Shown here piece by piece: positions 36,519 to 60,293 of a stretch of 64,000 nt of DNA. Position numbers and translations under genes: made by a program. Source of the stretch: an uncultured Planctomycetota bacterium. GTDB taxonomy: Bacteria > Planctomycetota > Planctomycetia > Isosphaerales > Isosphaeraceae. The notes under the pieces were generated by a model that was not told the origin of the DNA, made no database searches, and saw only the letters and a list, made by a program, of their open reading frames with translations. The stretch is from assembly GCA_963823665.1 (NCBI GenBank), contig CAWGMQ010000004.1:2944001-3008000 (forward strand), read 5' to 3'. Each line of letters begins with the position of its first letter. Position 1 is the stretch's first letter.

Positions 36519-39500
36519 TCAAGGCCGCGGCGGCACGCCGGTGATCGGCCCGGCCTTGGCGTCGTTGAAATCGGCGAGTGCGGTTGGGTCGGGTCGGGCG
36601 ATTCGCGTTCGGCGGGTGTCGGACTCCGCTCCAGGCTCGAGCAGGATGGTCAGGTCGTTGATGTCGTGGTCGAGCTGGCCTTCAAGGCAGATCAGGCGGT
36701 CGAGGGAGGGGTTCAGGCACCGGTTCTTTGCCGAAGCGTGATAGCCGGCACCGTCCTGGCTTCGCTCGACATCCAAGTAGACTCTCACGGCACTTGGAGG
36801 AAGGCCATTGAACTCGAACTTACCTGATGCGCCGAGCTTCGCGTGGAACCCGCCGCCCGCATTGGGATGGGACGCGAAGATGGTGCTTCCGGTAGGCACC
36901 TGTTTGCCGTCGGAGCAGATCACTCGGCCGGCGAGCGTGCGCCCTTCTTCGACGTGGCACTCGCCGATGTCGAACGTCGAGCCATCCTCGGCCGTTGCGA
37001 TGTGAATCGGAATGACGGCGCCTCCATCGGGCACGCTTGCGACCTTGGCATAAACCCAGAATTCGGCCGCTGCCGGGACGTGCGGGATGCGGAAAGAACC
37101 CTGCGAATCGGTTTTTGCTTCGAGGGGCGCAAGCAGAGTTGTATCCTGATCGCCATCGACGTACTTGAGTCCCATTTCAAGCCCCGCCACGGGCGGCTTC
37201 CCGTTCTTGAGCACTTTTCCTCTTACGAGAACGCCCGGGCCCAATGTGAGCGGTTCGCTGATCTTACCGTTCTGGTGGATGGAGATGAAGTCGCTAGTAG
37301 GATCGACCCCTTCGCCATCCTCGATGACCTCGAACTTGAATCGTCGCGAGGCGAACCCCTGCGCTCTGAGCACGAGGTCGAAGAGGTGTTGAGGCTCTTC
37401 CGCGCGGAAGGCGAACTCGCCGGCTTTTCCCGTCGAGACGACGGATTCTCCCTTGGTGTCCATACGATCCGCGACCGTGGCCGCGGCGATCGGCTTACCA
37501 TCGAGATCAACCACCCGGCCGCGGAGCATTTCAATTCCTTGCGTTGTGCTGAACGGAGAAGGTTCCGGCTTCGGTTTTGTAAACGGCGACCTCGGCAATC
37601 CCAACACATCCTCGACAGATCGCGCGATCAGATTGAACTCGAACTCGCGATCGAATTTCAGGTTGTCCATGGAAATCTCACCGAAGTCATACACAGTCTC
37701 ACCGGTATTCCCGATCGAGAATGTCGAGGCCCGATCGAGGGCCTCCACGGTTGCCGAGGCGACGTTGCCCGATTTGTCGATCACGAGCGTCGTCCCGATT
37801 CCATTCGTTTCGTAAGCCGTGATCGTTCGGCCCGAACCATCCTCGCTGGACCTGCGTGCGTTCGGGCCAGCGACGGTCGGTCCCGGCGGCCGGTCAAGAA
37901 GAAAATAGACCGGCGGTTCGCTCGTCAACTGTGTGCGAAGCGGGGCGACCGCGCGATTGAGCGTTTCGAGCGAGGTGATCGAGGCGTCGTGGAGGACAAG
38001 GATCGCAAGCGGTTTCCCAGCAAACTTCTTTTGAATCTGAGCGAGATGAGTCAGTGTCGGATTCTCAGACTCGTACTTGCTCGACCAGAAGCAGAGGATC
38101 AAGGCTTTGTCTCGAAAGTTGGCGAGTCTGACGGGCTTACCACCCAGGTCGAATGCGTCTATCTCCGTCGCCGGTTTGCCTAGCATCTTGAACCAAGCCG
38201 TCGACTCGAGTTGAAAGTCGGGGAGATCGAGTGGACCATTTCCGCGAGAAACGTTGATCTCCGCGACGCCTCGCATGGTGTCGGAATCGAATCGGATCTT
38301 GTACCGGCCCGGCAGTAACTCAGCTTCAAAAAGGCGGGGTGCGCCAGTAGATGCAGTCTCGTTTGTATCGGTCGAGTAACCCGTTTGCACATGTGCTGCT
38401 TTCTCGCCCATTCTGGCAATCTCACCCTCGTCGAGCCCGCCGGTGCTTGGATCGAGCGCGTACACGTTCCAGTGCAGATTCTGTTCGGGATGATCCTTGG
38501 GTGTCTCAATGACGCGAGCGCGGACCCGTCGAACCGGCTTGAGTGTGATTTCGAACGGCCTGTCCGGATCATCGTAGCGAATGACGGCGATTGCCCTTCG
38601 CGCGAAATCAGGAGACGCGAAGTGGATCACAATCGGGCCGTGTTCCGGAGACAGCGTGAGCGCACCCTCAAACTGGCCATTGGGCTCCGCCCGGAGCGCG
38701 GAACCCGCTTCTCTGTGAACCGCGAGCATCTGTAGGCGGTCGCTGCCAGAACGAATCTCAAAAACGTCTTTCATTTGCGCGATGGCGCTTGCTTCCTTAG
38801 ATAGAGGCAGATCGCGCCGCCAAGGAGTCGGGCCAGCTTGGAGGACAAACCGCCGGATGTCGGCCGGATGAATCGGTTGCCATTTTCCTCCCTCATCTTT
38901 CAATTCGAAGTACTTGCCGAGCGCCCCCGGCGAGACGACCTTTCCCTGCTCGTCGCGGAACGGCTCCTGGCGCTCGCGAATGCGGTCGCGTTCTGTGATG
39001 AGCTGCCAGCTTCCTGGCCACCCGCCGACGCCCCCGCCGATCCACGCCTTGGCCACCGGCTGGCCAAACTCGTCGCGAACGATTCCGCGAATTATTCGGA
39101 AACAAGTCTGGTGGCGGGGGAACCTTGTCCCGGGCAGCTTCCGGTGGTTCCTCAATCGCTGCGAGGGCGACTTCGGCCGGTACACGCGGTCCGTGCGCCC
39201 TGCTCGCTCGAATCGCCCACGAGGTTGCGCCGGAGACCAGAACACCGCCGAGCAAGATGATCGCCGCCGCGACCTTGAATCTCGTCAACGCGATTCCGCG
39301 CAGCACGTGTCTGGCCATCACCACCGAGGCTGCCCCGGCGATCGCAGGGCCGCTAGAGTGGGCAATCTGAATTGAGAGCCGCACCGTTGCTTCGGCCCAG
39401 GCCTGCGGGACAGGGGATGAGAGCTGGCCGAGCCCACCGGCTCCGGCGAAGGCCGATGCAAGGCCGACGCCGCGTTTTTCGAGCCGTGCTTTCAGCTTCT

Positions 39501-40074
39501 GCCGGCCGCGTGCGAGCCGGCTTTGAATCGTTCCAAGCGGGCAGCGCAGTTGAGCGGCCGCCTGCTCCTGACTGAGCCCATCGAGATAGCACAGGATAAG
39601 CGGCTCGCGGAAGGCTTGAGGCAGCGATCCCAGCTCGTCGTGGAGGGCTGCCCAATCTTCGCGGCTGTCCATCGCGGTGAGATCCGCTGCGACCGCATGC
39701 CCGGCTGCTCTCATTTCTCCCCCTCGGCGCTTGCGCTTGCGCCGGCGTGCCGCAGCGATTCGCACGTTGGCCGCGACCCGAAGTGCCACGCCGTGCAGCC
39801 AGCATCCCAGCGATTCGCGGCGGCTGATTGTTCCGGCCCGTTTTGCCAGGACGAGGAACGTCGCCTGGGCGGCGTCCTCGGCGTCTTGTTCATCGCCAAG
39901 AATCTGGCGGCAGATCCGCAAGACCATGGCTGCGTGCCGGTCGACGAGGGCTGCAAACGCGGCTTCGGCATCCTCGCCCCGGCGCTCGAGGAACTGTTCG
40001 AGCAACTGCCCGTCGGTCAAGCCGCCGGCGGTGCCGGTGTGGAAGAGGGTTTCGATTTGCTTGACGAATTCCAT
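36519..40074 (-). CDS. ECF-fusion 1: ECF sigma + TM + carboxypeptidase-regulatory-like repeats + redoxin-like domain (frameshift near 39110)
   Basis: MEFVKQIETLF..GGLTDGQLL..DAEDAAQATF..GTIQSRLARGR; TM; RGIVRDEFGQPVAKA, RGRVVDLDGKPIAAA; GKPATEI..LANFRDK..FW. Confidence 0.85.
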
Positions 40075-40125
40075 CGCTGGCCTGCAGGTTAGGCGCTTTG
40101 CACGTTTGGAACGGCCCAAACTTTC

Positions 40126-40158
40126 AGTGTAGTGTGCGCTGGCGTACCTGGCATTCCC
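40126..40158 (-). promoter_or_regulatory. Conserved motif GGGAATGCC-N15-CACTACACT (copy 1)
   Basis: Identical boxes and spacing at 46035-46067 and 54859-54891. Confidence 0.75.
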
Positions 40159-40279
40159 GAGTTGCTGGGATTTTCGTGCGCAGCGAGAATTCCGTTCGAT
40201 TTCGACGCAGCGCATCGGGGCCGCATCTCCCACGTCTGGCTGGCTTGAGCAGGGTTCGTGCACGGGTTAGAGTGCCATC

Positions 40280-41252
40280 ATGGCGTCACAGCGCAAAGAG
40301 CCGGACGATCTCGATAGTCCTTGGAAGGAAGCGCTCGAGCACTTTCTCGAATCGTTCCTCGCGCTTTGTTTTCCGAAAGTTCACTCCGGCATTGACTGGT
40401 CCCGCGGGTACCAGAGCCTCGACAAGGAGTTCCAGCAGATCGTCCGCGACGCGCGTGTGAGGAAGCGGCTCGCTGACAAGCTTTTCAAGGTCTGGCGCAA
40501 CGGCGGCAGGGAGGCCTGGCTGCTGGTTCACGTCGAAGTTCAGGGACAGCGGGAGAAGGCCTTCCCGGAGCGAATGTACGTGTACAGTTACCGGATTTAC
40601 GACCGCTACCGCCACGAGGTCGCGAGCCTGGCTGTGCTGTGCGACGAGCATCCGACCTGGCGGCCTGACCACTTCGGGTACGATAATTGGGGTTCTAAGG
40701 TCGGGATTTGGTTTCCTGTCGTCAAACTGATCGATTTCCGTGGGGATGACGGGGCCCTGGAACAGTCGCCCAATCCATTTGCAGCAGTTATACTGGCGCA
40801 GCTCAAAGTCATCGAGACCCGGAAGGCGCCGGCGACGCGCTGGCAATGGAAACTCCGACTGATCAAGGGACTCTACGATCGCGGGCTGAAACGAGAGCAG
40901 GTGCGGCAACTTTTTCGCGTGCTCGATTGGATGATGGCCCTACCACCGGAGCTGGAGCAGTCGTTTCGAACCGAGTTTGCGCGTTTTGAGGAGGCACGAG
41001 GCATGCCATATGTGACAAGCATTGAAAGACTGGCGCGAGGAAGGACTTCAGGAAGGACTCCAGAAGGGCGTCGCCAAAGGCTTCCAGGCCGCCATCTTGG
41101 AGCTTCTGGAATTCAAGTTCAAGAAAGTGGCTGCGAAACACGTGCGAAAGGTACGCTCGGTGCGCGAGGTCAAACGGCTCCAAGCCGTACTACGAGCCGC
41201 GAGCGAAGCGAACACGCTCGAGGAAGCCCTCTCGCCGCTTCGCGATGATTAG
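40280..41252 (+). CDS. Rpn/YhgA-like PD-(D/E)XK nuclease 1 (frameshift near 41038)
   Basis: DSPWKEALE..LDKEFQQI..ADKLFKV..LVHVEVQ..FPERMYVYSYRIYDRY; C-terminal MPYVTSIER..EG repeats. Confidence 0.85.
41003..41252 (+). CDS. Putative internally translated small C-terminal protein (RpnS-like)
   Basis: GAGGAGG at 40988-40994, 8 nt before the in-frame ATG. Confidence 0.6.
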
Positions 41253-41274
41253 TGCGCCTGAGGAGGCACGGGGC

Positions 41275-41596
41275 ATGCCGTATGTGACGAGCGTCGAACG
41301 CCTGGCGAGGGAAGAAGGGTGCGCGGAAGCGCGCGGAAGCGTGGCAGGATGGATGGCGCGAGGGCTGGCGGAAAGGATGGCGCGAAGGATGGCTGAAAGG
41401 ATGCGAGGAGGGCTTTACCGAAGGCTTCCAGGTTGCGATCTTGGACCTCCTGGAGCACAAGTTCAAGAAAGTGGCCGCGAAAGACGCGCGTAAGGTTCGC
41501 TCAGTCCTCGAGGTCGAGCGGCTCGAGACTGTGCTACGCGCCGTGTACAAAGCGAACACCCTCAAGGAAGCCCTCTCGCCGTTTCGAGATGATTAA
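41275..41596 (+). CDS. Stand-alone copy of the Rpn C-terminal module with expanded 4-aa repeats (frameshifted)
   Basis: GAGGAGG at 41260; MPYVTSVERLAREEG..WREGWRKGWREGWLKG..ILDLLEHKFKKV..ALSPFRDD. Confidence 0.75.
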
Positions 41597-41692
41597 GTCG
41601 CGGTCGACAAACTTCTCGAGTCGGAATGGAGTTGCCGAGGCGAGATGGTGGGGGAATGTGCCAGCGCGCATCGCCCCCCACGCGCTGCCCCC

Positions 41693-41833
41693 TCACGGCC
41701 GCGGCGGCACGCCTGTGATCGGGCCGGCCTTGGCGTCGTTGAAGTGGGCGATCACGGCCGGGTCGAGGTCATCCCGTTCGTCGCGGCTGGGTCTGGTCCG
41801 CCCGCCTGGCTCGAGAAGGACCGCGAGAATCTT
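41693..41833 (-). pseudogene. Orphan C-terminus paralogous to ECF-fusion 1
   Basis: VLLEPG..DPAVIAHFNDAKAGPITGVPPRP* versus ILLEPG..DPTALADFNDAKAGPITGVPPRP* ending at 36519. Confidence 0.9.
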
Positions 41834-44800
41834 TCACTCGGTCTTGCGGGCGACGACGGGGAAAACCGTTGCGACTTTTCCAGGCGTTCCCTCGCTGGTC
41901 TTCAGGTCGTCGAAGGTGATCTCCAATCGGTAGCGACCGGGCCGTTCGATGGGAAAGAGGGTGCGAAGGTCGATTTGAAACGCGCTGACAGTCCCGGCCG
42001 GCGCCAGTGTGAAGGGCGAGGCCCCGCCGGGATGGCGGCGGAAGGGGCGGCCGGGGATCTCCTCGGGGGGGAATGGCTTCTCACGAGCGCCTCCCAACTG
42101 GGCAAACGGGTTGAGCTCGTCAGGATTGTCCGACACGCGGACGAGCTGGAAGGCGATCCCGTCTCGGATCGTGACCATGCCGTCGGCGGCTCGGACGAGG
42201 TCGGCCGGAGCCGTCGAGTCGACTCCGCGATGGTTCCGGAACGAGAGCTCGACCGGCAGCGGGCCGGCGGTGGCGGCATCCTTGATTTCGATCCGCGCGT
42301 CCAGGTCGGTCGAGAGCAACGACCAGCCCATGTTCCAGGGCGTGGGGAATTCGATCTCCTCGGCGGCGACTCGTGTCAGGGCATGGCGGCCTGCGAACCC
42401 ATAGTAGCGACGCCATCGGTCGCCCGCGCGCACCTCCTCGGCTTGCCAGACCCGGCCCTCTTGCATCGCCTCGATAGCCGGAAACGCATTGCCCTGGTCG
42501 TCGAACCGCTGGATGACGGGGGGATCGTCGGGGAAGACCTCCAGCTTCGTCCACCGGGCGTCGAGCGGGAGCGCCGGCAACGGGACGCGGCGGACTTCGG
42601 CCCCGGCGCGGTCGAGCGAGAAGATGGCTCGCCCCGCCGCGACTTCCTCGGCTGTCGCGGGATGGTCGAGCGGGTCGAATGCGAGGACCGCCTTTTCATG
42701 CCGCGGACCACCCGGCTCTGCCGCGAGGATTGCCCGCGACGCCGCATTTTCGTGGAACCGTTCGCCAAACTGCTTCAAGTACGCCATGCAGGCGCCGATG
42801 GCCTGGTCGCGCTTCGAGACGGGCCATTGCTTCTGGAACCGGGGAATGCCTTCGAGCGCCTGGAGGTCTTCGCAGACCAGGTCGGCCATCCGCAGGGGCA
42901 TCGCCCCAGGCCCGGGCTTGACGGGATTTTCGGGCCGGGACGAAAGCGTGCCTACGCTAATGACCGACTGGGAAGTGCTGTTGCCCTTCTCCACGGTCTT
43001 GCTGCTGCCCTGGATCACCGTAACCGTCCCCTCGTCGTCGACCTCGACGGTGCCCACTTGGGTCTTGTCGGCGAGGGCCCTGAGGACGAGCGTGCGGAAC
43101 GATTTCAAGCCGAGCAACGGACCGCTGAGCCTGATATGAGTCGCAAAGCTTTGGGAACTGACCGAGGGATTCCAGGGCGATTTCGGGTCTTCGAACAGCG
43201 CGGCAGCCGCGGCTATCACGGCTGGGTGGTCTGGGTTGCTCCACAAGGGCTCGAAGATCGCGATCTGGCGGGCGTCGTGCTGGGCGGGGGTGATGGTGCG
43301 GATCCAGCCGGCGTAGTCGTCCAGCGCCTGCGGGTCGCCTGCCTGGGTGCGGAGGCGAGTCAGGCTCTCTATTCTCTCCTCCAGGCCGAAAATCTTCGGC
43401 CCGTTCTCTCGCTGGGCCTGTAAGAGCCCGGCGCAGCGTTCGGCGCGGGCTTTCAGGACAGGCAAGGCTGCCTTGATGTCCCACTCCGCCAGCATCGAAG
43501 CCATCTGGTTGGCCGATCCGACCTTGAACTGATCGGCTGAATTGGGATCGATTGGGCCGCCTGGGTCAAACTCTTTTGCTCGCATCGCCATGAGCTCGGC
43601 GACGCTCGGGTCTCGCTTGGCACGAAGGGCCTCGCCGCGGAGCCTGGGCCGGGCGCCGGGAGGAAGCGGGGTTGTCACCGCCGTGCCGAACGCCGTACTG
43701 CCGGGGACGACCGAGACATTTTCATGCTGGACGATGTTGCCGGCGGCCTGGAGCCATTCGCGCGGCGCGGCGACGTCGTCGGCGAGGGTGCGATACCAGC
43801 GCTCGATGAGCGGGACGTCTCGGTTCTTCTCCCAGTAGGCGTGGATTTGATCGGCGACCGCTTTGCGACCTTGAAGGCCGCGCGACGAGAGGTTGTCGCC
43901 GGTGGAGACCGCGCCGAAGAACGAGGTTTTCAAGATGCCGGAAAGCGCCGTGTAGGCGGCCTCGTGGGCCCCCATAATGATGCGCGATCGGTGGAAGTCG
44001 CGGTGGAAATGGACCGAGCGGGTGAGGCGGACATCGGTTTCGAGGTCCTCGAGCAGCGGGTTGACCGCCTCGTCGCCCGCTTCGACGAGTGACTCGACGA
44101 CCGGAGAATCGCCCAAACTGACGGCGCCCGGCTGGCCGAACTGGCGCGCTGCGACCTGATCGAGATCGGCGATCAGAGCGGCGATCCGCTTCTTGGCATC
44201 GGCCCCCTGCGGCGGCACCGGCGGTTGCTTCGGTTCCCGGGCCCGGCGCTCCTGGTCGGCGAGGAGATCGGGGAGCTGGTCGAGGAATTGGATGTAAGGC
44301 GGGGAGCCCTCAGCGCCGTCGCCGGGCTTTCGGGGGTAGTCGAAGCCCATCGCCTTGGCCCGCGTCTCGACGTCTTTCTGGAGCGTGGTGAGCTTCCGCG
44401 CATCGGCAAGCGCCAGGGCATCGTCGCCGCGCATGTGGGCGCAGACGGCGCGATCGAAGAGGTACCAGGCCAGGTCGTTTGCCAGCGTCACATAGGAAAC
44501 ATTAAATTTGTTCTCGTCAAGCTTCGCCTTCGGGTTTGCCGCTCCGAACCGGGCGTCGCGCGGCCGGCTCCCTGCGGCCCAGACTGTCTCCGCGAGATCG
44601 GCCCGGCCCAGCCGGAAAAGCAAGCAGACCTTGATCGCGAGGAGGCTCGTCGGAGAGACCGCGTATGCTTCGTCGATTGCCCGGAAGGCGTTGAACCCGG
44701 AGTCGTCCATGTTGTCGCCGGCTGCGCGGGAGGCGCGGGCCATCTCGTCGATGATTTTCACGTCGGCGGCCGGGTCGGCCGGCTCGCCGACCGAGACGAG

Positions 44801-45977
44801 CGGATAGACCAGACCGCTCCAGGCGACAGCGAATCGCGTTTTCGCGCCGGCAGGTGCCGGCAAGACCCAGCCTCGCGTCTTGATCACACCTCCATCGCCG
44901 GTCCACACGTTGCCGATGCCGATCTCGATCGCGCGGTAATCGCAGCCGCGCGGATCTGCCAGCCCTTGTTCGAAGAGCGTGGCCGAGGTATTCGAAAGGA
45001 ACGCGGGCAACGAGGTCGCGGGGGGTTGCGAGGGTTCACGCTGCCGGGGAGGGTCAGGGATCGACGTTCCTTCGAAGCGAGGCGCCGGGCGATGGTCGGT
45101 GCGCTGGCGCAGCGCCATTGCAGTTGCTCCTAATAGAAATACTGCTGTGAGCACGGTCATCGCCGCGCCGACTTTCCATTTGGACAAGACGATGATGCGG
45201 CATACTCGAAGAGCCAGCGCAACGGAGGCCGTGCCCGCAATCTCGCGGGCTTTGAGGTGCGCGAACTCACCCGCCAGCCGCACGGTCGCCTCGGCCCATG
45301 CCTGCGGGGCGGGGCAGGACGGGAGGCCGTCGCTGTGGCTCGCAGCGGCGAAGGCGGATGAAAGAACCCTGCCGCTTTTTTCAAGTCGCGTTTTCAGCTT
45401 GGCCCGCCCGCGTGCGAGGCGGCTCTGGATGGTTCCGAGCGGACATTGTAATTGCATTGCAGCCTGCTCCTGAGTCAGCCCGTCGAGGTAGCAGAGGATG
45501 AGCGGGTCGCGGAAGGAGCGGGGCAGCGATCCCAGCTCATCGTGCAGTCGCACCCAATCATCTTGGTTTTCGATTGTGTCGAAATCTCCATGGACGACGT
45601 GGCCGGCGGCTCGCAGTTCGCCTTCTCGGTGCTCGAGCTTGCGCGCGGCGCGCGTGAGCCGCGCGCAGGTTGGCCGCGACGCGGCGTGCCACGCCATGCA
45701 GCCAGCAGGCGAGTGATTCGCGGCGGCTGATCGATGGCGCACGACGTGCGAGGACGAGGAACGCGGCCTGGGCGGCGTCTTCGGCGTCTTCTTCGGTGGG
45801 TAGGATCTGGCGGCAGACGCGTAAGACCATTGCGCCATGGCGGTCGACGAGGGCGGCGAATGCGTCTTGGGCGTCGTCGCCGCGGCACTCGAGGAACCGC
45901 TCGAGCAACAGGCGGTCGGTCAGGCCGCCGGCCGTGCCGGTGCGAAAGAGGGTCTCGATTCGCTTGACGAATTCCAT
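41834..45977 (-). CDS. ECF-fusion 2: ECF sigma + TM + ~1000-aa domain of unknown function (frameshift near 45660)
   Basis: MEFVKRIETLFRTGTAGGLTD..; LPRSFRDPLILCYLDG..GTIQSRLARGR; TM; unrecognised extension. Confidence 0.85.
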
Positions 45978-46034
45978 CGCGGGCCTCCGTTTCAGCGCAT
46001 CACGCGGCGTTTGCCGACTGGCCGCAGCCTCTAT

Positions 46035-46067
46035 AGTGTAGTGTGCGCCCGCCGGACCGGCATTCCC
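46035..46067 (-). promoter_or_regulatory. Conserved motif GGGAATGCC-N15-CACTACACT (copy 2)
   Basis: Exact match upstream of ECF-fusion 2. Confidence 0.75.
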
Positions 46068-46189
46068 GTGCTGTCGGGTTTTCATGCGCACGGACAAGTT
46101 CATCCGATATTGGTGCAGCGCATGTGAATCGCATCTCCCCGCGTCTTGCTGGGTTGAGCGGGGGCTCGCGCAGGGGGTACGGTGCCATC

Positions 46190-46856
46190 ATGTCGTCCCG
46201 GCCTGAACAGTCCGACGATCTCGACAGTCCGTGGAAGGAAGCGCTCGAGCACTTTCTCGAATGGTTCCTCGCGCTTTGTTTTCCGGAGATCCACGCGGGC
46301 ATCGACTGGTCACGCGGGTACCAGAGCCTCGACAAGGAGTTCCAGCAGATCGTCCGCGACGCGCGCGTGCGGAAGCGGCTCGCCGACAAGCTTTTCAAGG
46401 TCTGGCGCAACGACGGCACCGAGACCTGGCTGCTGGTGCACGTCGAAGTTCAGGGGCAGCGGGAGAAGACTTTCCCGGAGCGAATGTACGTTTACAGTTA
46501 CCGGATTTACGACCGCTACCGCCGCCAGGTCGCGAGCCTGGCTGTGCTGTGCGACGAGCATCCGGCCTGGCGGCCCGACCACTTCGGGTACAATAATTGG
46601 GGAGGAGGCGCGAGGCATGCCCTACGTGACGAGCATCGAGAGACTGGCGCGGGAAGAAGGTCGTCAGGAAGGAGTCGCCGAAGGCTTCCAGGCCGCGATC
46701 CTGGAGCTTCTCGAACTCAAGTTCAAGAAAGTGGCCGCGAAACACGCGCGAAAGGTCCGCTCCGTGCGCGAGGTCGAGCGGCTCCAGGCCGTGCTGCGGG
46801 CCGTCAACGAAGCGAACACGCTCGAGGAAGCCCTCTCGCCGCTTCGAGATGGTTAG
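46190..46856 (+). pseudogene. Rpn-like nuclease 2 with ~296-bp internal deletion
   Basis: Highly similar to 40280-40692, then jumps directly to the equivalent of 40988. Confidence 0.85.
46617..46856 (+). CDS. Intact 79-aa RpnS-like C-terminal module
   Basis: GAGGAGG at 46602-46608, ATG 46617, open to TAG. Confidence 0.7.
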   Translation: MPYVTSIERLAREEGRQEGVAEGFQAAILELLELKFKKVAAKHARKVRSVREVERLQAVLRAVNEANTLEEALSPLRDG

Positions 46857-46950
46857 CCCATCGCGGGCCTTCGGTTGAGACGCATCGCACGGCGTTTACG
46901 AACTAACCGGACCCTATCGTGTCGTGTGCGCCGGCGTGCCCGGCATTCCC
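46857..46950 (-). promoter_or_regulatory. Orphan ECF leader with degenerate motif copy GGGAATGCC-N15-CACGACACG
   Basis: Paralogous to 45974-46067 including the ATG, which is followed by a stop two codons later. Confidence 0.75.
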
Positions 46951-47060
46951 AGGCCGCCGGTTCTGGCCTGAGCCGCGACGGCGCTGTGCAACTTGCCCAG
47001 CGAGCCGGCGCTTGGTATGCTCTGGATTGGACATGCGACAATTGTCAGGGGATAACGGCG

Positions 47061-50966: not shown

Positions 50967-50981
50967 CGCTCATGTACGATT

Positions 50982-51112
50982 GTTGCGAAACGAACCCAAG
51001 GACGTAAGTGGTGTGCTGCAAGGGACAATGGGCGATTCGCAGGGCTTGCTGCGAAACGAACCCAGCGTGATTTCTGAGGCTGTCGCGGTTGGCCGCAGGA
51101 ACGGCAACGTGA
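50982..51112 (+). repeat. Diverged duplicate of 49955-50085 with two perfect TGCGAAACGAACCCA motifs
   Basis: Motifs at 49957, 50023, 50984 and 51050; 66-bp period in both pairs. Confidence 0.9.
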
Positions 51113-51114
51113 GC

Positions 51115-54100
51115 TCAGCGGCGAGCGGGGAAGAGCTTGGGATTCTCGAGCGCCTTGCCCACGGCCCCTGGATCGTTTCCGCTCATGTCGTGGGCCACGA
51201 TTCGCCCGTCGGGACCGATGAGGAACGTCAGCGGGATTTGCCTCTTCTTTTGATCGGGACCAATGATGTACTGAGACTGGTAAATCACGCGGATGTCGTA
51301 ACGAGTGGCGGCGCCCGTGACGAAGTCGCCGGCGAAGCCGTGCGTCCAGTTCAGCCCGTCTTGCTTGATTGACTGCTCGGCCTGCGCGGCACTCTTGCCG
51401 CAGGCAAGGCTGATGAGCACAAAGCGGGGGTCGTGGCCGAAGTTCGCCTGGACCTCCTTGAGCACGGTCATGTCATTCTGTCGACCGGCTTCGGCTTGCC
51501 AGAAGTTGAGCAAGACGAGCTTTCCTCGATAGTCGCTCAGCTTCAAGCGCTGGCCTTTGTTGTCTGCGCCGATGCGCTCAACCTCGAAATCCGGCGCGAG
51601 GTCGCCGATCTTGATCCCTTGGCGCACTTTGGCAGTGATCGTCCCCAGGTCGAACGGTTCGTCCGACCGGTCACCGGCGAACGCCGGCACGACTACGGAT
51701 TGCTTCACAGTGTCGATCAGGCGCGGGTCTTCCCCGACCTCCAGCTCCAGCTCGTACTTGCCCGCGGGTACGTCGTCGATGCGAAATCGGCCGTCGTTCT
51801 TGATATGCGCCGCAAAGAGAGGCGACGTCCATACCAGGCGGCCGGAACGGTTGGTCTTCGATTGCTCGGTCGGCACACCGAGCAATACGGGTAGGTTGAG
51901 GGTCCAGTCGATCGGTGCTTCCGGCGTGCCGTCCAGAACGATCCGGCCGATCACGGGACGTCCTTTGCCGCCGAGGGTGACGTGAGCCGTCTCGCCTGGC
52001 TTGACCTCGATACGCTCCGGCCAACACTCAAGCTGCCGGAAGGGGTGTGAGGGACGGGGATCGTCTCGCACGACCCGGGAGACCGTGCCCGGGCCAGGGA
52101 CCACGCGGTCGAACTGGAAGCGGCCCCGCTCGTCGGTTTGCGTCCAGTAGCCAAAGCTGAAACTGTCCAAGCTGCTTTCGTGCTCAGGCCGGATCGGATG
52201 GAACATTACCTGTTGGTTGGGCCCGAACCGAGCGCCGATACGCACGCCGCCGTCGATCCGTCCCCAAGCTTGCAGCACGAGCTTGCCCGACCTGGCAAGC
52301 TCGTCGGATGTGGCGTCGGCGTAGCCTGTGTCGGTCAGGGCCACCACCACGAACTTTCCGGAGCGCGGTGGGAAAGAGAATCGGCCGTCGGGTCCGGTCG
52401 ATGCTTTGGGGAAATTCGCATTCGGATTGAACTTGCCAGACCGCAGAAACACCTGGGTCTGCCATGTGGAGAGTCCGACGTCGGCGCCGCTCGCGGGCTT
52501 CCCGTTGGGGAGAAAGACAATCCCCGTGATGCCCGAGGCTCGCCGTAGCGCGAAGTCAAGAACCTGCCGGCCTTCCTCGGGCTTGAAAGCCCGCGACACG
52601 GCCGTCGCGTAACCGGGGGCATCGATTCTCACGAAGTGCGCCTCGCGCGCGGAGTCGAACGAGCACGTAAATTTGCCGTCCGCGAACTCGTCACTGCGGT
52701 TCTCGTCCCAGTCGACGTCCCGTTCCCAGTCGCCGGACCGCCAGCCTTTGACGACCCGAACTTTCGGCACCGGTCGTCGTGTCTCGGCGTCGGTCACACG
52801 GCCGGTGATCACGAGCTCGGGGTAGAGAACGAAGGTCTGCTCGCGCTCCGATGCGACGAGCGGAACGTCGCGAGGTGACATCATGCCGTGCTTGCTGATT
52901 GTGTAGTGCACAACATCCTTGGGGGCGCTGTGCCATTCGAAACGGCCGTGCGCGTCTGTCGTGGTTTGAAACCGGATCGATCGATGCCCGCGCCACGAGT
53001 CCGCATAGACCATGGCGCCGGCGACCGGGTTGCCCTTCGCGTCGACGACGCGGCACCGAAGCAACGCGCCGGGTTCCAGGAGCTGGAATTGCACCGGTGC
53101 GGTTCGCGCGTCGACGCGGACGTCCTGAATCCGCGGTGCAAAGCCCTCGGCTTGGACCGTGATGACTGATGGACCGGCATCACCGTTCTCAAGGGTAAAT
53201 CGCCCCTGCTCGTCGGTTGTTGCGGATGGGCGGTTCGACCCCCAGATATCGCCGAGAACCGCCGTGGCTCTCGGCACCGGAGAGCCTGCGGCGTCGACGA
53301 CGCGACCCGAGACGGATAGACCCTTGTTCATGATCGTGACACTGTCGAGATTCCGCGACGCGACGACGTCGCTCTTGCGAAAATGCGGATGGGTCGCCTG
53401 GACCCACAATCCCGCCAAGTCCTTGGGCGCGACGTCGAATCGCCAGCGGCCTTGCGCGTCGGCTCTAGCGGAACCCAAGCTGAACCAATAATCTTGCCCT
53501 CCACGATTGATTCCGAGCGCGCCGACTTTCACCGCGGCGTCTGCGAGGGGATGGCCGGCTTCATCGCGCAGAATGCCACCGATGATTGTGCCCGGCTCGA
53601 AACGCAGTTGCTCCGTCACCGGCAATGCCACCGGCCCGCGCTCGTGCTCCCAAAGGATGTCGATCGGCACGCGATCGGGTGCGCGGGCAGTAATCCAGAG
53701 TCGCCGGACGATCGCGCCGGCGGGCCATTCGATCGCAGCGGTCCCATCTTCTCCCGTGAAGATCGTCGCCTGCCGGCGCTCTTCGCCGAAGACGCATACA
53801 TATTCAATCAACACGGCTTCGATCGGCTTACCGGTCGAGGCATCGATGGCCTTGAGCGTCAGCTTCGCTGCCGGCTGCTCGTTCTCGGGATGGAGGTTGG
53901 TCGGGACAGCGGGCGGTGCATTGGATTTGCGTTCGTGAATAGCCCATGCGGCGGTGGCGACACAGGCGCCACACATCAAAACCGCGGCTGCCACTTTCGT
54001 CTTGGCCAGGACGATGGTGCGCAAGACCTCTTCAGCCAGCACGAGGGACGCCGTGCCTGCTCCAGCGATTGCGGGACCTTTGGCCTGCACAAACTGCATC

Positions 54101-54802
54101 GCCAGCCGCACCGTCGCCTGGGACCAGACCTGCGGCGGAGGGCAGCTCTCTAGAGCGCTCTGACCCGCGGCTACAAAGATTCCCGAAAAGCTAAGTCCCC
54201 GTTTTTCGAAACGGGCCTTCAGCTTCGCGCGGCCGCGTGATAGCCGACTCTGAATTGTTCCGAGCGGGCAGCGCAATTGCGCCGCGGCCTGCTCCTGGGT
54301 CAATCCGTCGAGGTAGCAGAGGATGAGCGGCTCGCGGAAGGATTTCGGAAGCTGATCGAGCTCTTGGTGGAGGGCAGCCCAATCGTCTTCGTTTTCGATG
54401 GCTTTGAAATCTCCCTGGACGACATGGCCTGTGGTTCGCATTTCTCCCCCTCGGCTGCTCGCGGGTGCGCCGGCGAGTCGCGGCGATCCGCGCCTTGGCG
54501 CCAACCCGAATCGCAACGCCATGCAGCCAGCAGCCGAGCGACTCGCGCCGGCTGATTGAAGCGGCCCGCCGCGCCAGCACGAGGAACGTCGCCTGGGCGG
54601 CGTCTTCGGCGTCTTGTTCATCGCGAAGAATCTGGCGGCAGACCCGTAAGACCATTGCCCCATGGCGGTCGACCAGGGCCGCGAAAGCCGCCTCGGCATG
54701 CTCGTCGCGGCGTTCGAGGAAGCGCTCGAGCAACTGGGCGTCGGAGAGGCCGCCGGCTGTGCCGGTGCGAAAGAGTGTCTCGATCTGCTTGAGGAATCGC
54801 AT
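51115..54802 (-). CDS. ECF-fusion 3: ECF sigma + TM + carboxypeptidase-regulatory-like repeats + redoxin-like domain (frameshift near 54455)
   Basis: MRFLKQIETLFRTGTAGGLSD..; several GRVVD..G.PV..A units; GDLAPDF..LKLSDYRGKLVLLNFW..TFLIGPDGRI. Confidence 0.9.
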
Positions 54803-54858
54803 CGGCGGCCTGACCGGAACGCGTTCGCGGCAGTGTCAACGACTGGAATGCAGCGTCC

Positions 54859-54891
54859 AGTGTAGTGCCCGGCCGAGGCTTGGGCATTCCC
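54859..54891 (-). promoter_or_regulatory. Conserved motif GGGAATGCC-N15-CACTACACT (copy 3)
   Basis: Exact match upstream of ECF-fusion 3. Confidence 0.75.
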
Positions 54892-54940
54892 CGAAGGCTC
54901 TTCGCGATTCAGAAATAGCTAGCGACGGGGGGTGAAGCGC

Positions 54941-55360
54941 TTACCGAGCCGGTGCGTTCTTGTTCCAACGCTTATGGGGAGCTGGGAGACCTTCGGTCGC
55001 GCGAGGGGCGGGGTCAGGAGACCCGCGCCCAACAGCCTGGGGTGAGTGCCAACGGTGCGAGTTCACGGTCCGGCCGATAGCGTAGCCCCACGCCGGCAGC
55101 AATGCGATGCTCCCTCCCATCAAGACGAGCTCGAGAACCACGGCGACAATCAACCCCTCCGAATCAGGCTCTGCCCACGGAATCCACGCCAACGGATTCT
55201 TCCCTGTAATAAACGCCCAGCCCGCCATTAGAACGGGTAACGACCACAACGTGAGGACGACCAACATCCGGGAGGGTCGGTCATGCCTAGACGGGCGCAG
55301 TCCGAAAATGAACGCGGGCGCCCAGAGCAGCAGGCCCACGAATAAGGCGGCTTCCACCAC
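54941..55360 (-). CDS. Small 3-TM membrane protein, possibly 5'-truncated
   Basis: Three hydrophobic stretches; C-terminus reads through a GGGAGACC..GGTCAGGAGACC repeat-like segment. Confidence 0.55.
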   Translation of the reverse strand: MVEAALFVGLLLWAPAFIFGLRPSRHDRPSRMLVVLTLWSLPVLMAGWAFITGKNPLAWIPWAEPDSEGLIVAVVLELVLMGGSIALLPAWGYAIGRTVNSHRWHSPQAVGRGSPDPAPRATEGLPAPHKRWNKNAPAR

Positions 55361-55383
55361 GGGCCAGTTTTCCTGAGCAAACG

Positions 55384-55440
55384 TCAGAGACTTTCCAGAT
55401 GGGCCAGGAGGCCAGTACCTCGGCTCTCGTGCGCATCTTA
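55384..55440 (-). pseudogene. Orphan antitoxin 3' tail
   Basis: tcagagactttccagatgggccagga nearly identical to 60060-60085 (..AEVLA..HLESL*). Confidence 0.75.
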
Positions 55441-55461
55441 ACCCGGGAGCCTGAAAGTCGA

Positions 55462-55730
55462 TTACCTCTCGCGCCGCTGATGATACCAGACGTGATCCAC
55501 TCGAACGATTCGCTTGGAACGATTGACGACGAACAAAACACCGAGCGGCTCTTCAAACATCACGCGATCATCGTCGCCGCGCGACTCACTGGATCCGACC
55601 GGATCGGTCCTGAGCTTTTCATCGATTACGTTTGACGCCACCGTGACGGCTTGTCGCTCACCGACATCAGCGCGCTCCACGCCTCGGCAAGATCGTTCAG
55701 TGCCCCGGCCAGCCAGATTACGCGAAACAT
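55462..55730 (-). CDS. RelE/ParE-like toxin 1 (frameshift near 55675)
   Basis: MFRVIWLAGALNDLAEAW..IDEKLRTDP..SESR..RVMFEEPLGVLF..VRVDHVW. Confidence 0.7.
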
Positions 55731-55736
55731 CTCAAA

Positions 55737-55970
55737 TCAAAGTGCTTCCAGGTACGCGAGCACTTCGGCCGTTGTGTACGTCTTACCTCCCTCCGACCTC
55801 CGGCGGTTTAGTTCCTCCTTACTGATTCGCGGCTCGAGCGGACCGAGTTCTGACTCGATCGCGGGCACAACTCGAGCGAGCACATGACCGGCTTCATCAA
55901 CCAACTCGAGAGGTTTCGCCAAGTCGTGCAGTTTCTCCCGAAGCACGGAATCGCAAAGGACCTTTGTCAT
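55737..55970 (-). CDS. Putative antitoxin 1 (Phd/YefM-like N-terminus)
   Basis: PLELVDEAGHVLARVVP..GKTYTTAEVLAYL; small gene directly upstream of the toxin. Confidence 0.7.
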   Translation of the reverse strand: MTKVLCDSVLREKLHDLAKPLELVDEAGHVLARVVPAIESELGPLEPRISKEELNRRRSEGGKTYTTAEVLAYLEAL

Positions 55971-56124
55971 GGCTGGTTCCTTATATTCGGGGCACTGACG
56001 CCCGACCTTCCGACGCTCTCATTGTACATCCGCCCACAGTGACGGGCAAACACGGATCTTGCTTTGCCGCGACAATCCGATCAATCTATCTTCCACCCCC
56101 AGCGATACCGATTTGTAAAGGTTA

Positions 56125-59100
56125 TCACCTCGACGAACCGGCTTGAGCCTTCAATCGCCGATTGAGACGGGCAAGTGCCGAATTCGAGTCCCGGGTCTCG
56201 ATAGCGCCGGGGTTTCCTCGCGCCATTCGCTCGAGGACAGCACGGGCTTCGGACGTGCCGACGCGTTCGAGCGCGTTCATCGCACGCAGCGTGCGCAACA
56301 CCTCACGCGGCGCGGTCGGCCCGGATGCGGCTGGGGCTCCATCTCGAGCGGGGAACGTCGCGGGGCGGAGGCGCTCTTGCAGGAAGGGAACAGCCGACGC
56401 GGTGCTTAGCGTCCAGGTGGCGCGGTAGGCCGCCCGGGCGTCATTGCCGGCAAGGTCAGTCCAACGAGCCTGCCGCTCTTCGGCCGTCAGCGGCGGGTCT
56501 GCGGCACGGCGGTCAGTCAAGTCCGAAAGGTCCCAGACCAGGGCCGTTGCATCCGCGCCGGCGGAGATGACCGACCGGCCGTCGGGACTGAACGCGACGG
56601 CCGTGACCGCCCCGCGGTGGCCCTCGAAGCGTCGCGCCTGCTGGCCGTTGGTAAGGTCCCAGACGCGGACGATCGAGTTGTGGATTGTCCCTCGATTGCG
56701 ACCCGCTGTCGCGAGGAATCGGCCATCGGGAGAAAAGGGGCGCCGGAGGTCATAATCACCGTGCGCGTCGAGCGTCTCGACCTCCTGGCCGGAGGCCAGC
56801 TCCCACAGTCGGTAGAGCCAGTTTTCCGAGTCTTGACGGGCGCCGGGCCCGGGGCCGTGCGTCGCGAGAAATCGGCCGTCTGGAGAGAGCGTAGCCCGAT
56901 CGTGGCAGTTGGACCACTCGACGGTGCGGCGCAGCTCCCTACCGGTTGCGATTTCCCAGAATCGAACACCATCCGGCTCCGCGGTTATGATCTGCTTTCC
57001 GTCGGGTGTGTAGAACATGGGGCAGAAGCTCAGGAAACGGTCGAGCCTGGGGTCTCGGTGCCGGAGCGTCGCGATGTGCATTCCCGAGCGGGCGTCCCAG
57101 ATCAGCCCCGCAGATGCGACCGTCTTGCCATCCGGCGAGTAGACAACGTCCTGGACGACATGGTGGTTTGGCAAACCGGGGAGGCGCCGGATTTCGCGGC
57201 ACTCGGCCACGCGCCAGAGGCTGATCCCTTCGATCTGACGCGGCTGCACGCTTTGCTGGCCGCCGACGAGCAGGGTCTTGCCGTCGGGCGCCAGCGCCAG
57301 CGCTTCGACGGGGCAATCGAGCTGGGCGATGAGACCCAGTTCCCGCCCGGAGGATGAATTCCATTGCCGCACCGTGCCATCTGCGCCGCCGGTGAACACC
57401 GTTGCGTCCGCTTGGGAGACCACCAAGGATCGGATGGCCGAGCGGTGTCCCGACTGAGGGAATGCCTCGCGACCCGTCGCCACGTGCCAAAGCCGGACGA
57501 CCGGCTCGACGCCGCTTGAGGCGAGCGTCTTGCCGTCCGGAGAAAATGACAACGACGCGACCCGGTGTTGATGCGCCAGAAGTCGATGGAGCTCGCGGCC
57601 TCGCGCGACGTCCCAGAGGTGGATGGCGGCGAGCGACAAACCTTCATCGTCTGCGTGGATCCGATCGTGAGCGTCGCCGCCGGCGAGGATGGTGCCATCG
57701 GGAGAGAACGCCAGCTCAGCGATCGCCCGCGCGCGAGGGGCTTGATGTCGTCTTTCGGTGGTGGCGGCTGCTTCGGTGCGAGCCTTGGCATGCGCTCTTG
57801 CCCGGTGGCGAGATCATACAGCCGGACGGTCCCGTCGGTGACGGCAGCAGCCAGCAGCCTACCGTCGGGCGAAATGGCCACGCGCAGGATGTCGAGACCA
57901 TTAACCGGGAATCGCCTTTGCTCCCGGCCGGTGGCGAGCTCCCAGAGACGCGTGGAGCCTTTATCGGCACCGATTAATACATTGCCGCGGGTGACTTCGG
58001 TGTCGCGACTGGCGGTGGCCAGCGTCTTGCCATCGGGCGAGAACTTGAAATCCCTGAGCAGCACCCAATCGCCGCCGACGCGGCGGCGACGCTCGGTAGG
58101 CGCACTCATATCCCACACGTCGATGAACGACTCGGACTTCTGGGTGGCCTCGTCAAACCGGTGGACGCTCGTCGCCACCATCCGGCCGTCCGACGAAATG
58201 ATCGGATGCGTGTGGATCTCGTCCCTGCCCTGGTGCGACCGCCGCTGTTCGCGGCCTGAGGTGATGTCCCAGAGGTGAAGCTGTCCCGGCTTTTCGATTG
58301 TTGCCAGTGTCTTCCCGTCGGGCGACAGCGCGATCTCACTCGTGTACGAGACCTCGCGATAGTCAGCTTCCGCGTCGCCGATTTTGCCGACGATGTCGCC
58401 CGTCTTCGCGTCCCAGACATGAACGACGTGCGTGACATCGACGGTCACCAGCGATTTCGCGTCGGGCGTGTAAAGGACCTGCTTGACCGGCGACCCCTCA
58501 TGGAAGGGGACGATGCCCAGGCGTGCGCGGGCGTGCTGTGGCAGTGGATCGCCGCGATGATCGAGCACGGCCGATTGGTTTCGGGGCGAGGCGGCCGGTG
58601 CTGCTGCGGAATCGGGCGGTCTGCGGGGTTGCCCAGGCGGCCCGGCACGCAGGAACATTCCGAGCCCGGTCGTCGTCAGGACGATCGCGAGAACAGCGAT
58701 GCTCGCCGTCAGCCTGGCCACGAGCAGGCTTCGAAGCACGGCGTTGGCCATGGCGCAAGCGGCTGCGGCCGGCATCCCTCTGATCGCAGCGGCGACGGTC
58801 GCCTCCAGGAGGCGTACGGAAGGCGTGATCCGAACCGCCGGCTCGAAGAGCGATGTGCCGATCCATCCGCTTGGTACCAGGCCTCTCCGGGTGAGCCGCG
58901 CTCTGAGCAGGTCGCGGGCCCTGGCGAGCCGGCCACGGACTGTCCCCACGGGCCATCCCAGAGCTGCGGCGGCCTCGTCGTGCGTGCGGCCTTCAAAATA
59001 GCAGAGCACTACCGGCGCGCGGTACTTCGCCGGCAGACGGTTGACCTCCTCGTGCACGAGCGATTGAAGCTCGGCGTGTTCGATCGCGAGCGAGGGCCTC

Positions 59101-59495
59101 TCGATCGACATGCGCGCGACCCGATGCTCTCGCGCCCGGCGCCGAGCGTCTCCCAGTCGCGTCTTCGCGGCGATGCGGTAGGCGACCCGGTGCAGCCAGG
59201 CTCCGAGGCAACCGGGCTCGCGGACTCGCAGCGATCCGGCGCGCCGGACGACGACCAGGAATGTGGCCTGGAATGCGTCCTCAGCCGCGTGCGAATCGCC
59301 GAGCACTTGCCGGCAGACGGTCAGCACCATCGCGCCATGACGCGTGAGGAGGGTCTCGAACGCAGCATCCGCCGCGTCATCCCGCCGTATTGCAAATCGC
59401 TCGAGCAGCTCGCGGTCTGTCAGGCCGACGGAGCTGCCTGGGCCGAACAGTCGACCGAAGCGGCGGGCGAGGTTTTCCACCGATGCGCTTGCCAT
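56125..59495 (-). CDS. ECF-fusion 4: ECF sigma + TM + WD40 repeats (frameshift near 57720)
   Basis: GLTDRELLERF..AEDAFQATF..LPAKYRAPVVLCYFEG..GTVRGRLARAR; D..GDPLP..A.ARLG; many FSPDG..LWD units. Confidence 0.9.
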
Positions 59496-59657
59496 GATTT
59501 GGCCTCCGAGCGTGGACCAACGTGATTCATACTCCTTTTTCCCATGACTCGTTGGCGCAATACACTTTTTCTAGCTCGTCGGCTCCCGCCATGAACGATC
59601 AATCTTCCTTTGCGGCAATGAAATGAGCCACAACGGCCCCGACCAGAGCGAAGAAGA

Positions 59658-59745
59658 TTATCTGCAACTACTCTGCAGATAGGCCAACACCTCGGCCGTT
59701 TTGTAGGTCTTGCCGTTTGATGCGCGCCTTCGATCCAATTCCTCT
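59658..59745 (-). pseudogene. Orphan antitoxin 3' tail
   Basis: EELDRRRASNGKTYKTAEVLAYLQS, similar to the antitoxin 1 C-terminus. Confidence 0.8.
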
Positions 59746-59786
59746 CAACGGACGCTTGCGATGACCGTTCGTCCGTGCGATCAAGG

Positions 59787-60060
59787 TCAACTATTTCGAC
59801 GTGGTTGGTAATACCACACGTGCCCGACCCGTACGGCCCGCTTCTCCACGTTTACATTGAAGAATACGCCCAGCGGCGCAACAAAGAGGACTCGTCGGTC
59901 CTCTTCTCTGGACTCGCTTCCGAAGAAACGGATCAGCCTTCAGTTCTCGGTCGATCGTATTGGTCGCTTCGACGATAGCCCGACGTTGGTTCGAATCGGC
60001 ATCAGTCCAGATCGCAGCCAAGTGTTCGTCCGTTTCGGGCGCCCGTTCGACCTTATACAT
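59787..60060 (-). CDS. RelE/ParE-like toxin 2 (frameshift near 59925)
   Basis: MYKVE..LAAIW..IDRELKADP..SESREEDRRVLFVAPLGVFF..VRVGHVW; start overlaps the antitoxin stop. Confidence 0.7.
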
Positions 60061-60293
60061 CAGAGACTTTCCAAATGGGCCAGGACTTCAGCCGTCGTGT
60101 AAGTCTTGCCCTTTTGAGCCATCCGGCGTTGCCATTCCTCTCTGCTCAGGTGGGGCTCGCCAGTCTCGTCCTCGCTCACAATGACCGGCACGACCCGAGC
60201 GAGCACATGGCCGGATTCGTCGCACAACTCGAGCATCTCCGTCAGATCGTGCAGTCTCTCCCGAAGCGCAGTATCACAGATCACCCTTGTCAT
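60060..60293 (-). CDS. Putative antitoxin 2
   Basis: Paralog of 55737-55970. Confidence 0.7.
   Translation of the reverse strand: MTRVICDTALRERLHDLTEMLELCDESGHVLARVVPVIVSEDETGEPHLSREEWQRRMAQKGKTYTTAEVLAHLESL

What the first reader, a model, noticed from the sequence alone, without database searches (positions are those of the whole stretch)
36519..60293. Modular array of one-component ECF-sigma sensors interleaved with Rpn nucleases and TA pairs
Seen: four co-oriented ECF-TM fusions with different C-terminal cargo (beta-sandwich repeats + redoxin, unknown ~1000 aa, beta-sandwich repeats + redoxin, WD40). Each has a toxin-type module upstream (Rpn1, Rpn2, TA1, TA2). ECF1-3 share near-identical N-termini and an upstream motif, and the region holds several orphan gene ends and an orphan leader. 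Established: planctomycete ECFs with long C-terminal extensions are known, Rpn/YhgA proteins were described as recombination-promoting nucleases, and TA cassettes stabilise cassette arrays. Inference: a constant-head/variable-sensor diversification locus in which cargo domains are swapped by recombination and addiction modules retain the units.
Basis: partly seen in the sequence, partly recalled or inferred. Interest (0 to 1): 0.85.

Follow-up and report, generated by a model that had tools for sequence, protein, structure and literature searches.

The report
Sigma sensors swapping their outer domains
Four neighbouring genes each join a gene-switching sigma factor to an outer domain through one predicted membrane helix; three share one sigma head but carry unrelated outer domains, two of them likely captured from other proteins by ordinary recombination (a known planctomycete habit), while the toxin genes beside them likely just ride along.

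Summary
The anatomy is real; the toxin-retention idea is not supported. The four genes are ECF57-type sigma–TM–cargo fusions, 4 of about 140 in this genome. ECF1–3 form one head clade (72–76% identical) with unrelated cargos. ECF1 keeps the clade's usual cargo. ECF2's cargo comes from a signal-peptide protein, joined where the TM ends, with the old gene's tail left behind; two other database proteins carry the same fusion. ECF3's cargo usually sits on BlaR1/M56 heads. Head/extension mismatch in planctomycete ECFs is published (PMC7671368); the TM-boundary junction and named donors are the addition.
The RelE-like TA pair occupies this site without ECFs in two other genera. The sister genome lacks ECF4 and both toxin genes, and its ECF1 is deleted beside a retained Rpn. 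Five TA families are not enriched upstream of ECF heads (3 observed, 1.8 expected). Rpn1 has the known RpnL/RpnS layout. One loose end: Rpn sits within 2 kb of an ECF57 start at 4 of 29 independent sites (3 of 28 without this locus; p 0.01–0.10). The scan has noted other ECF57 fusions before, none matching this stretch.

The parts
36011..36496 (+). TIGR03067-domain gene; conserved left flank of the variable interval
   Evidence: NCBIfam E 8e-13; next to the TA pair in G048 and G071
36519..40074 (-). ECF1: ECF57-type head + TM + cargo1 (beta-sandwich repeats, redoxin); one frameshift near 39100
   Evidence: same cargo family as paralog C4:2001161 (35% over 907 aa) and 13 of 17 head-clade loci elsewhere
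40075..40173 (-). Leader 1 with GGGAAT...CACTACAC motif (likely promoter)
40280..41252 (+). Rpn1 (RpnL) with internal Shine-Dalgarno and ATG at 41003 (predicted RpnS antitoxin)
   Evidence: PF04754 E 8e-5, 22.7 bits, cut-off 21
41259..41596 (+). Downstream duplicate of RpnS with extra four-residue repeats
41693..41820 (-). Orphan 3' tail of a cargo1-type ECF gene, just behind ECF2
   Evidence: 78% to ECF1 end; 78% over 119 bp to the end of the cargo1-like gene in this slot of G001
41834..45977 (-). ECF2: same head clade + TM + cargo2 (about 1,080 aa, predicted alpha-solenoid plus C-terminal beta-sandwich); junction at about 45106; frameshift near 45650
45978..46082 (-). Leader 2
46190..46856 (+). 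Rpn2: nuclease gene with about 295 bp internal deletion; RpnS part intact
46858..46965 (-). Orphan leader ending at an ATG with no gene body
   Evidence: 78% to leader 2
46875..48428 (+). Leucine-rich-repeat protein (likely start near 47061)
   Evidence: Pfam LRR
48693..50303 (+). Hypothetical protein, no family hit; distant homolog (27%) in the same slot of G001
50980..51147 (+). Orphan fragment of the 48693 gene (residues 421-476, 50%)
51115..54802 (-). ECF3: same head clade + TM + cargo3 (beta-sandwich repeats + redoxin), a cargo usually found on BlaR1/M56 heads; frameshift near 54450
   Evidence: same junction in G001
54803..54890 (-). Leader 3
54941..55360 (-). Small predicted membrane-protein gene between TA1 and ECF3
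55381..55440 (-). Remnant antitoxin 3' end; right-hand repeat of the segment absent from G001
   Evidence: (D15)
55462..55970 (-). TA1: predicted antitoxin 55737-55970 and RelE/ParE-like toxin 55462-55737 (toxin frameshifted)
56125..59495 (-). ECF4: different head clade + TM + WD40 cargo; frameshift near 57730
   Evidence: nearest paralog C5:437086, head 72%, cargo 48% over 808 aa
59670..59753 (-). Second remnant antitoxin 3' end
59791..60293 (-). TA2: predicted antitoxin 60060-60293 and RelE/ParE-like toxin 59791-60060; positional ortholog of the resident pair after ruvC
60352..60465 (-). Decayed duplicate of the ruvC 3' end (intact ruvC lies about 5 kb further, beyond the window)

Best explanation
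This is a plastic chromosomal interval in which one membrane-tethered ECF57-type sigma gene was likely duplicated and likely had its outer domain replaced twice by ordinary recombination at the end of the predicted membrane helix, with Rpn and TA genes likely as passengers. Shown: three related heads with unrelated cargos; ECF2's sequence switches from ECF-like to secreted-protein-like at about 45106; the old tail lies behind it; the sister genome holds a cargo1-type gene in that slot; two other genera have no ECF in the interval. Inferred history: ECF1 + Rpn entered beside the resident TA pair; promoter + head + Rpn were duplicated; cargo2 came from a signal-peptide protein and cargo3 from the BlaR1/M56-associated pool; ECF4 arrived between repeated antitoxin ends. 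The fusions may have formed elsewhere and entered as whole alleles. Inferred function, untested: each outer domain senses an envelope signal and the sigma head is released from the membrane, so new inputs would feed a similar promoter set. No dedicated recombinase is needed.
For: Head tree (C4:2001161,(ECF3,(ECF1,ECF2))), SH-aLRT 95/99, quick tree; no BLAST hit at E 1e-5 among the three cargos. Head clade elsewhere: cargo1 in 13 of 17 loci. Cargo2: 0 of 29 fetched homolog loci have an ECF head within 1.5 kb, and they begin with signal-peptide-like N-termini; 2 of 120 listed protein homologs carry the head, and the fused forms are one clade (100) nested among unfused ones. Junction at the TM end / donor mature N-terminus. 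Cargo3: 20 of 29 loci M56 head, 5 ECF head (one is the G001 ortholog), 3 short or signal N-terminus, 1 unresolved. Interval without ECF in G048, G071, G015. G001 differs in content. TA genes within 2.5 kb upstream of 140 heads: 3 of 90, 1.8 expected, p 0.27. This TA family has an ECF head within 1.5 kb at 1 of 24 loci outside the genus. Published precedent: PMC7671368.
Against: Rpn lies within 2 kb upstream of an ECF57 start at 4 of 29 independent sites (p 0.001-0.03), or 3 of 28 without this locus (p 0.012-0.10); both five-head runs in this genome have an Rpn beside or inside them. Two of the three other mixed-cargo clusters have a PIN or PemK gene 5-7 kb upstream of a member (read off; post hoc, untested). 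Only one congeneric genome was available, 84% complete, and its deletions could be assembly faults. Direction (gain in G000 or loss in G001) is not fixed for ECF4. Sensing and release were not tested.
Confidence: 0.66

Rival explanations
1. One reading: a dedicated diversification locus in which Rpn nucleases drive cargo exchange and toxin-antitoxin addiction keeps each unit.
For: Swaps are real and dense here (3 of the 7 mismatched pairs genome-wide). Rpn overexpression raises RecA-independent recombination (PMC5350276 abstract). Rpn proximity to ECF57 starts exceeds chance.
Against: TA pair is resident without ECFs in two other genera. G001 lacks ECF4 and both toxin genes, keeps an antitoxin, and has ECF1 reduced to 34 codons plus tail beside its Rpn. 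Rpn2 is internally deleted. No TA enrichment. The nine-genome Rpn-ECF pair keeps one cargo type in the eight with visible cargo. 0 of 16 loci of this head clade outside the genus have Rpn or this antitoxin in the 1.5-kb flanks.
Confidence: 0.1
2. Fortuitous-insertion model (Pinto and da Fonseca 2020): a duplicated sigma2-sigma4 core lands in front of a pre-existing gene or non-coding DNA and adopts it as an extension.
For: Cargo2 and cargo3 exist as parts of non-ECF genes, as that model predicts. The birthplace of the ECF2 fusion is unknown; it could have formed at a donor locus and moved here.
Against: What is shared is promoter + sigma core + linker + TM, not the core alone. The junction falls at the TM end / signal-peptide boundary. 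The interval holds no donor gene in three outgroup genomes, and the displaced tail lies behind ECF2.
Confidence: 0.17
3. The mosaic is an assembly artefact of an error-prone metagenome-assembled genome.
For: Frequent single-base indels. No public contig bridged the ECF2 junction.
Against: The ECF2 fusion occurs in two other database proteins with heads 79% and 88% identical. The ECF3 junction is shared with G001. The repeats are 74-86% identical, too divergent for mis-joins.
Confidence: 0.03

Closest known systems
ECF57 (Casas-Pastor et al. 2021, PMC7826278; main-text passages and supplement part 15 read)
   Same: Planctomycete ECF with TM-bearing C-terminal extension, WD40 or carboxypeptidase-regulatory-like context, conserved Cys pair (136 of 136 and 130 of 136 heads here).
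   Different: One clear TM here against an average of about 2; about 140 copies in this genome against 5.3 per genome; cargo2 is in no Pfam or NCBIfam family; assignment not made with the group's own HMM.
Planctomycete ECF duplication with unrelated C-terminal extensions (Pinto and da Fonseca 2020, PMC7671368; abstract and passages read)
   Same: Recent head duplicates with incongruent extensions, many matching non-ECF proteins.
   Different: They propose random insertion of sigma2-sigma4 alone and report no conserved context. Here the unit includes promoter, linker and TM, the join is at the TM end, donors are identifiable, and the old tail remains.
RpnL/RpnS gene-within-gene toxin-antitoxin systems (Zhong et al. 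2023, bioRxiv 10.1101/2023.05.02.539157; parts 1-3 of 4 read)
   Same: Internal RBS + ATG, variable four-residue repeats, downstream duplicate RpnS, arrays by tandem duplication, deletions fusing the N-terminal part to a later RpnS.
   Different: Distant subfamily (weak PF04754 hit; below the TIGR01784 cut-off); proximity to ECF57 genes is not described in the parts read; activity untested.
RelE/ParE-family type II TA pairs
   Same: Two overlapping small genes; toxin homolog scores 0.95-0.98 to RelE/ParE-named Atlas clusters; weak full-length match to YoeB structures, E 0.2.
   Different: No Pfam hit for one intact homolog and no relevant NCBIfam hit for 14; antitoxin unassigned; toxicity untested.
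Integron/superintegron arrays with TA cassettes, and orphan C-terminal modules of polymorphic toxins (both recalled; no paper read)
   Same: Variable modules with interspersed TA genes and orphan gene ends.
   Different: No integrase or conserved recombination site seen; the orphans are short decayed 3' ends, not spare cargo cassettes.

Membership tests
ECF57 | sigma2 + sigma4 ECF core | tested here: met
   Pfam Sigma70_r2 / r4_2 and TIGR02937 over cut-off
ECF57 | Conserved Cys pair in sigma2 and sigma4 | tested here: met
   All four window genes; 136/136 and 130/136 genome-wide
ECF57 | C-terminal extension with TM helix | tested here: met
   Hydropathy peak in all four; 128 of 136 heads; simple Kyte-Doolittle scan only
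ECF57 | Placement by the ECF57 group HMM or reference tree | not testable with these tools
   Group models not available
ECF57 | Planctomycete host | tested here: inconclusive
RpnL/RpnS TA | YhgA-like nuclease domain | tested here: met
   PF04754 22.7 bits, cut-off 21; TIGR01784 below cut-off
RpnL/RpnS TA | Internal RBS + start for a small C-terminal protein with four-residue repeats | tested here: met
   Sequence at 40987-41005; same motif in 22 of 30 Rpn loci scanned
RpnL/RpnS TA | RpnL toxicity neutralised by RpnS | not testable with these tools
   Needs expression
RelE/ParE type II TA | RelE-like toxin fold | tested here: inconclusive
   Atlas 0.95-0.98, PDB profile E 0.2; single-sequence model pLDDT 57, not searched
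TA-stabilised cassette array (integron-like) | Site-specific recombinase and conserved recombination sites | tested here: inconclusive
   None among the ORFs scanned or repeats found; no genome-wide search
TA-stabilised cassette array (integron-like) | TA genes travel with and retain the cassettes | tested here: not met

The most novel reading that the evidence does not exclude
Planctomycetes build new one-component sensors by plugging exported proteins onto interchangeable membrane-anchored heads (ECF57, BlaR1/M56 or a plain signal peptide) at the membrane boundary, and Rpn nucleases, which have settled in front of ECF57 genes at least four times independently, supply the DNA breaks that amplify and re-cargo these genes.
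Probability: 0.12. Interest if true: 0.75.

Novelty: new variant of a known kind. Interest (0 to 1): 0.42.

Why it matters
The origin of the very large, unstudied ECF57 repertoires is an open question; the published model is random insertion of a sigma core, which left open whether the extensions have any regulatory use. This locus shows single events with donor, junction and left-over tail, and points to exchange at the membrane boundary that keeps the topology of a sensor. ECF1-3 give a natural test set: similar heads and promoters, three inputs. The toxin part is mostly ordinary.

Tried and rejected
Whole-genome scan in the script box was not possible, so the ECF census rests on 150 scored matches of 334 candidates, merged to 140 heads; more may exist. 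Five fragmentary or false rows were dropped before the 136-head alignment. The careful head tree did not finish; the quick tree was used. Automatic gene-end calling ran into downstream genes for many ECFs, which can only add false cargo homology. A genome-wide shared ECF57 promoter was not found: GGAAT.{15,19}[CG]ACTA in 6 of 136 leaders, 0 in control windows. The sigma-70 scan found nothing at the leaders. Public runs: no RNA holder listed; contigs did not bridge the ECF2 junction and showed no credible rearranged form. A metagenome scan with the ECF2 junction gave 62 loci, all matching from residue 82 or later, so no fused form. Cargo2 folded confidently (pLDDT 86.5) but had no Foldseek match at E 0.001 and only middling VIA scores, best Z 9.4; Atlas best 0.80. 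Two Rpn places listed for the family (G140, G071:C687) were not examined, and several flanks end at contig ends. Context of P0001 and P0030 remains unknown. Jogler 2012 is not held. Eight literature searches listed no paper linking Rpn to planctomycete ECFs; subscription papers are not covered, and bioRxiv supplements of Zhong et al. were not seen.
Full report
Setting. The window is G000:C4:2944001-3008000 of a 16.46-Mb, 12-contig genome. A search with the ECF1 head scored 150 of 334 candidates, which merge to 140 heads; 44 of 141 listed sites have another head within 10 kb. All 136 aligned heads have the sigma2 cysteine and 130 the sigma4 cysteine, and 128 have a TM-like segment. This fits ECF57 as described in the supplement of PMC7826278 (part 15 read). 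Four such genes in a row are therefore not rare in this genome: an array of five with one cargo type lies on C8.

Observation. The four fusions, two Rpn genes, two TA-like pairs, the leader motif and the orphan ends are all present. Heads 1-3 are 72-76% identical, not near-identical. The two ECF-Rpn units derive from one duplication, 39377-40692 against 45276-46602 at 80%. Each ECF gene has one frameshift, as does dinG. An intact relative of ECF2 and a contig lacking the extra base suggest assembly error.

Cargo exchange. The quick head tree gives (C4:2001161,(ECF3,(ECF1,ECF2))) with SH-aLRT 95 and 99, and the three cargos share no BLAST hit at E 1e-5. ECF1's cargo is that of the outgroup paralog and of 13 of 17 loci of this head clade in other genomes; three carry other cargos and one is the G001 remnant. 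For cargo2, none of 29 fetched loci (best match of 29 of 35 genomes with a hit) has an ECF head within 1.5 kb, and their N-termini look like signal peptides. ECF2 resembles ECF1 through the TM and resembles the secreted proteins from 45106 onward. Of 120 listed protein homologs, two (P0001, P0030) carry the same head; with ECF2 they form one clade nested among unfused proteins (37 rows, those above 44% identity among the first 45). For cargo3, the nearest paralog has a BlaR1/M56 head, as do 20 of 29 loci elsewhere; five have ECF heads, four of them only 46-49% like ECF1. Genome-wide, 38 of 45 pairs with heads at least 65% identical share cargo; 3 of the 7 exceptions are in this window, and 4 of 17 head clusters are mixed. 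Swapping is thus a minority, family-wide process that is dense here.

Synteny. In G048 and G071 the TA pair lies directly beside the TIGR03067 gene, and in G015 2.4 kb from it, with no ECF head between; in G048 and G015 ruvC precedes it. The pair is older at this site than the ECF genes. In the one congeneric genome, G001 (84% complete), ECF1 is cut to 34 codons plus tail next to a retained Rpn; the ECF2 slot holds a headless cargo1-like gene ending in the tail that is orphaned in the window; ECF3 has three deletions; and the segment from toxin 2 through ECF4 and TA1 is absent between the repeated antitoxin ends, leaving one antitoxin and no toxin. G001's deletions could be assembly faults, and gain or loss of ECF4 cannot be ordered.

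Toxin modules. Rpn1 has an internal RBS and ATG and a downstream duplicate of the small C-terminal part, the layout that Zhong et al. showed to be a toxin with an intragenic antitoxin acting in phage defence, with arrays made by tandem duplication (parts 1-3 of 4 read). Rpn2 has lost about 295 bp but keeps that small part. The TA toxin is RelE/ParE-like by language-model features and weak profile matches. The genome has four Rpn copies and this TA family only in the window, so at most five of 140 heads have either within about 2 kb upstream. Ninety genes of five TA-associated Pfam families (TA association of DUF433 and DUF2442 recalled) are not enriched near heads at any of five distances.

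Result against my reading. Of 52 Rpn sites in the family, grouped by shared flanks into 30 groups (29 after merging the window with its G001 ortholog), four lie within 2 kb upstream of an ECF57 start. Against a chance rate of 1.7-4%, p is 0.001-0.03, or 0.012-0.10 without this locus. One of the four is a divergent pair conserved in nine genomes of three genera. Both five-head runs in G000 have an Rpn. But the conserved pair and the C8 array keep their cargo type, and the other three mixed clusters have no Rpn nearby, so Rpn is neither needed for nor sufficient to cause swaps. The proximity is unexplained.

Mechanism. Shown: common head, unrelated cargos, junction position, donors, left-over tail, variable content between genomes. 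Inferred: duplication of promoter + head + Rpn, then replacement of the outer part by homology-assisted or illegitimate recombination, possibly as alleles imported from relatives. Inferred and untested: signal sensing outside the membrane and release of the sigma head, as suggested for ECF57 (PMC8999054 passages); the clade-specific leader motif may be an autoregulated promoter.

Prior art and verdict. Pinto and da Fonseca (PMC7671368; abstract and passages) already reported incongruent heads and extensions in planctomycete ECFs and proposed fortuitous insertion of the sigma core; PMC8567305 (passages) notes domain shuffling in the phylum generally. I found that paper through an earlier scan note. 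This locus refines the model rather than defining a new system: a new variant of a known kind, interest 0.42.

Noticed in passing
L377, L381, L385, L389, L391, L392, L393, L106, L107: A divergent Rpn-ECF57 pair (about 300 bp apart; 1.0-1.1 kb in two) is conserved across nine genomes of three genera, with tandem ECF copies in at least two; a different Rpn subfamily and head clade from the window.
   Followed up: partly
G000:C8:1635018-1650482 (L001, L002): Five tandem ECF57 genes with one cargo type, then an MFS gene and an N-terminally deleted Rpn with a duplicate RpnS; orthologous in G001, where the Rpn N-terminus is present.
   Followed up: partly
G000:C10:1403398-1404270 (L003): Rpn lacking its N-terminal 100 or so residues, followed by a duplicate RpnS; at least three of the four Rpn nuclease genes in this genome look inactivated while the antitoxin parts are kept.
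   Followed up: partly
window 51113-53900 against L055: ECF3 cargo DNA is 90-98% identical to G001 while its head is 79-83% and most neighbouring core genes 81-91%, hinting at recent exchange of the cargo between the two species.
   Followed up: partly
window 60352-60465 and L005 1478-1592: A 5-kb insert (subtilase, TPR protein) is bounded by imperfect copies of the ruvC 3' end; the same pattern of duplicated gene ends bounding inserts recurs through the interval.
   Followed up: partly
window 54985-55034: A 50-bp palindromic element with copies in at least six other fetched stretches of this genome; likely a REP-like repeat.
   Followed up: no
G000:C4:35130, C8:1488435, C8:955274: PemK or PIN genes lie 5-7 kb upstream of members of two of the three other mixed-cargo ECF clusters; post hoc, not tested.
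   Followed up: no
window 41834-45106: Cargo2 belongs to a widespread unannotated family of about 1,100-aa secreted proteins (583 homologs at E 1e-30) with a confident predicted fold and no clear structural relative.
   Followed up: partly
window 31353-31520: Two tandem 82-bp copies (95%) between a response-regulator gene and a conserved short ECF gene (31762-32526).
   Followed up: no
window 9462-11538: IS66-like transposase genes, split by frameshifts (family name recalled from the sequence).
   Followed up: no
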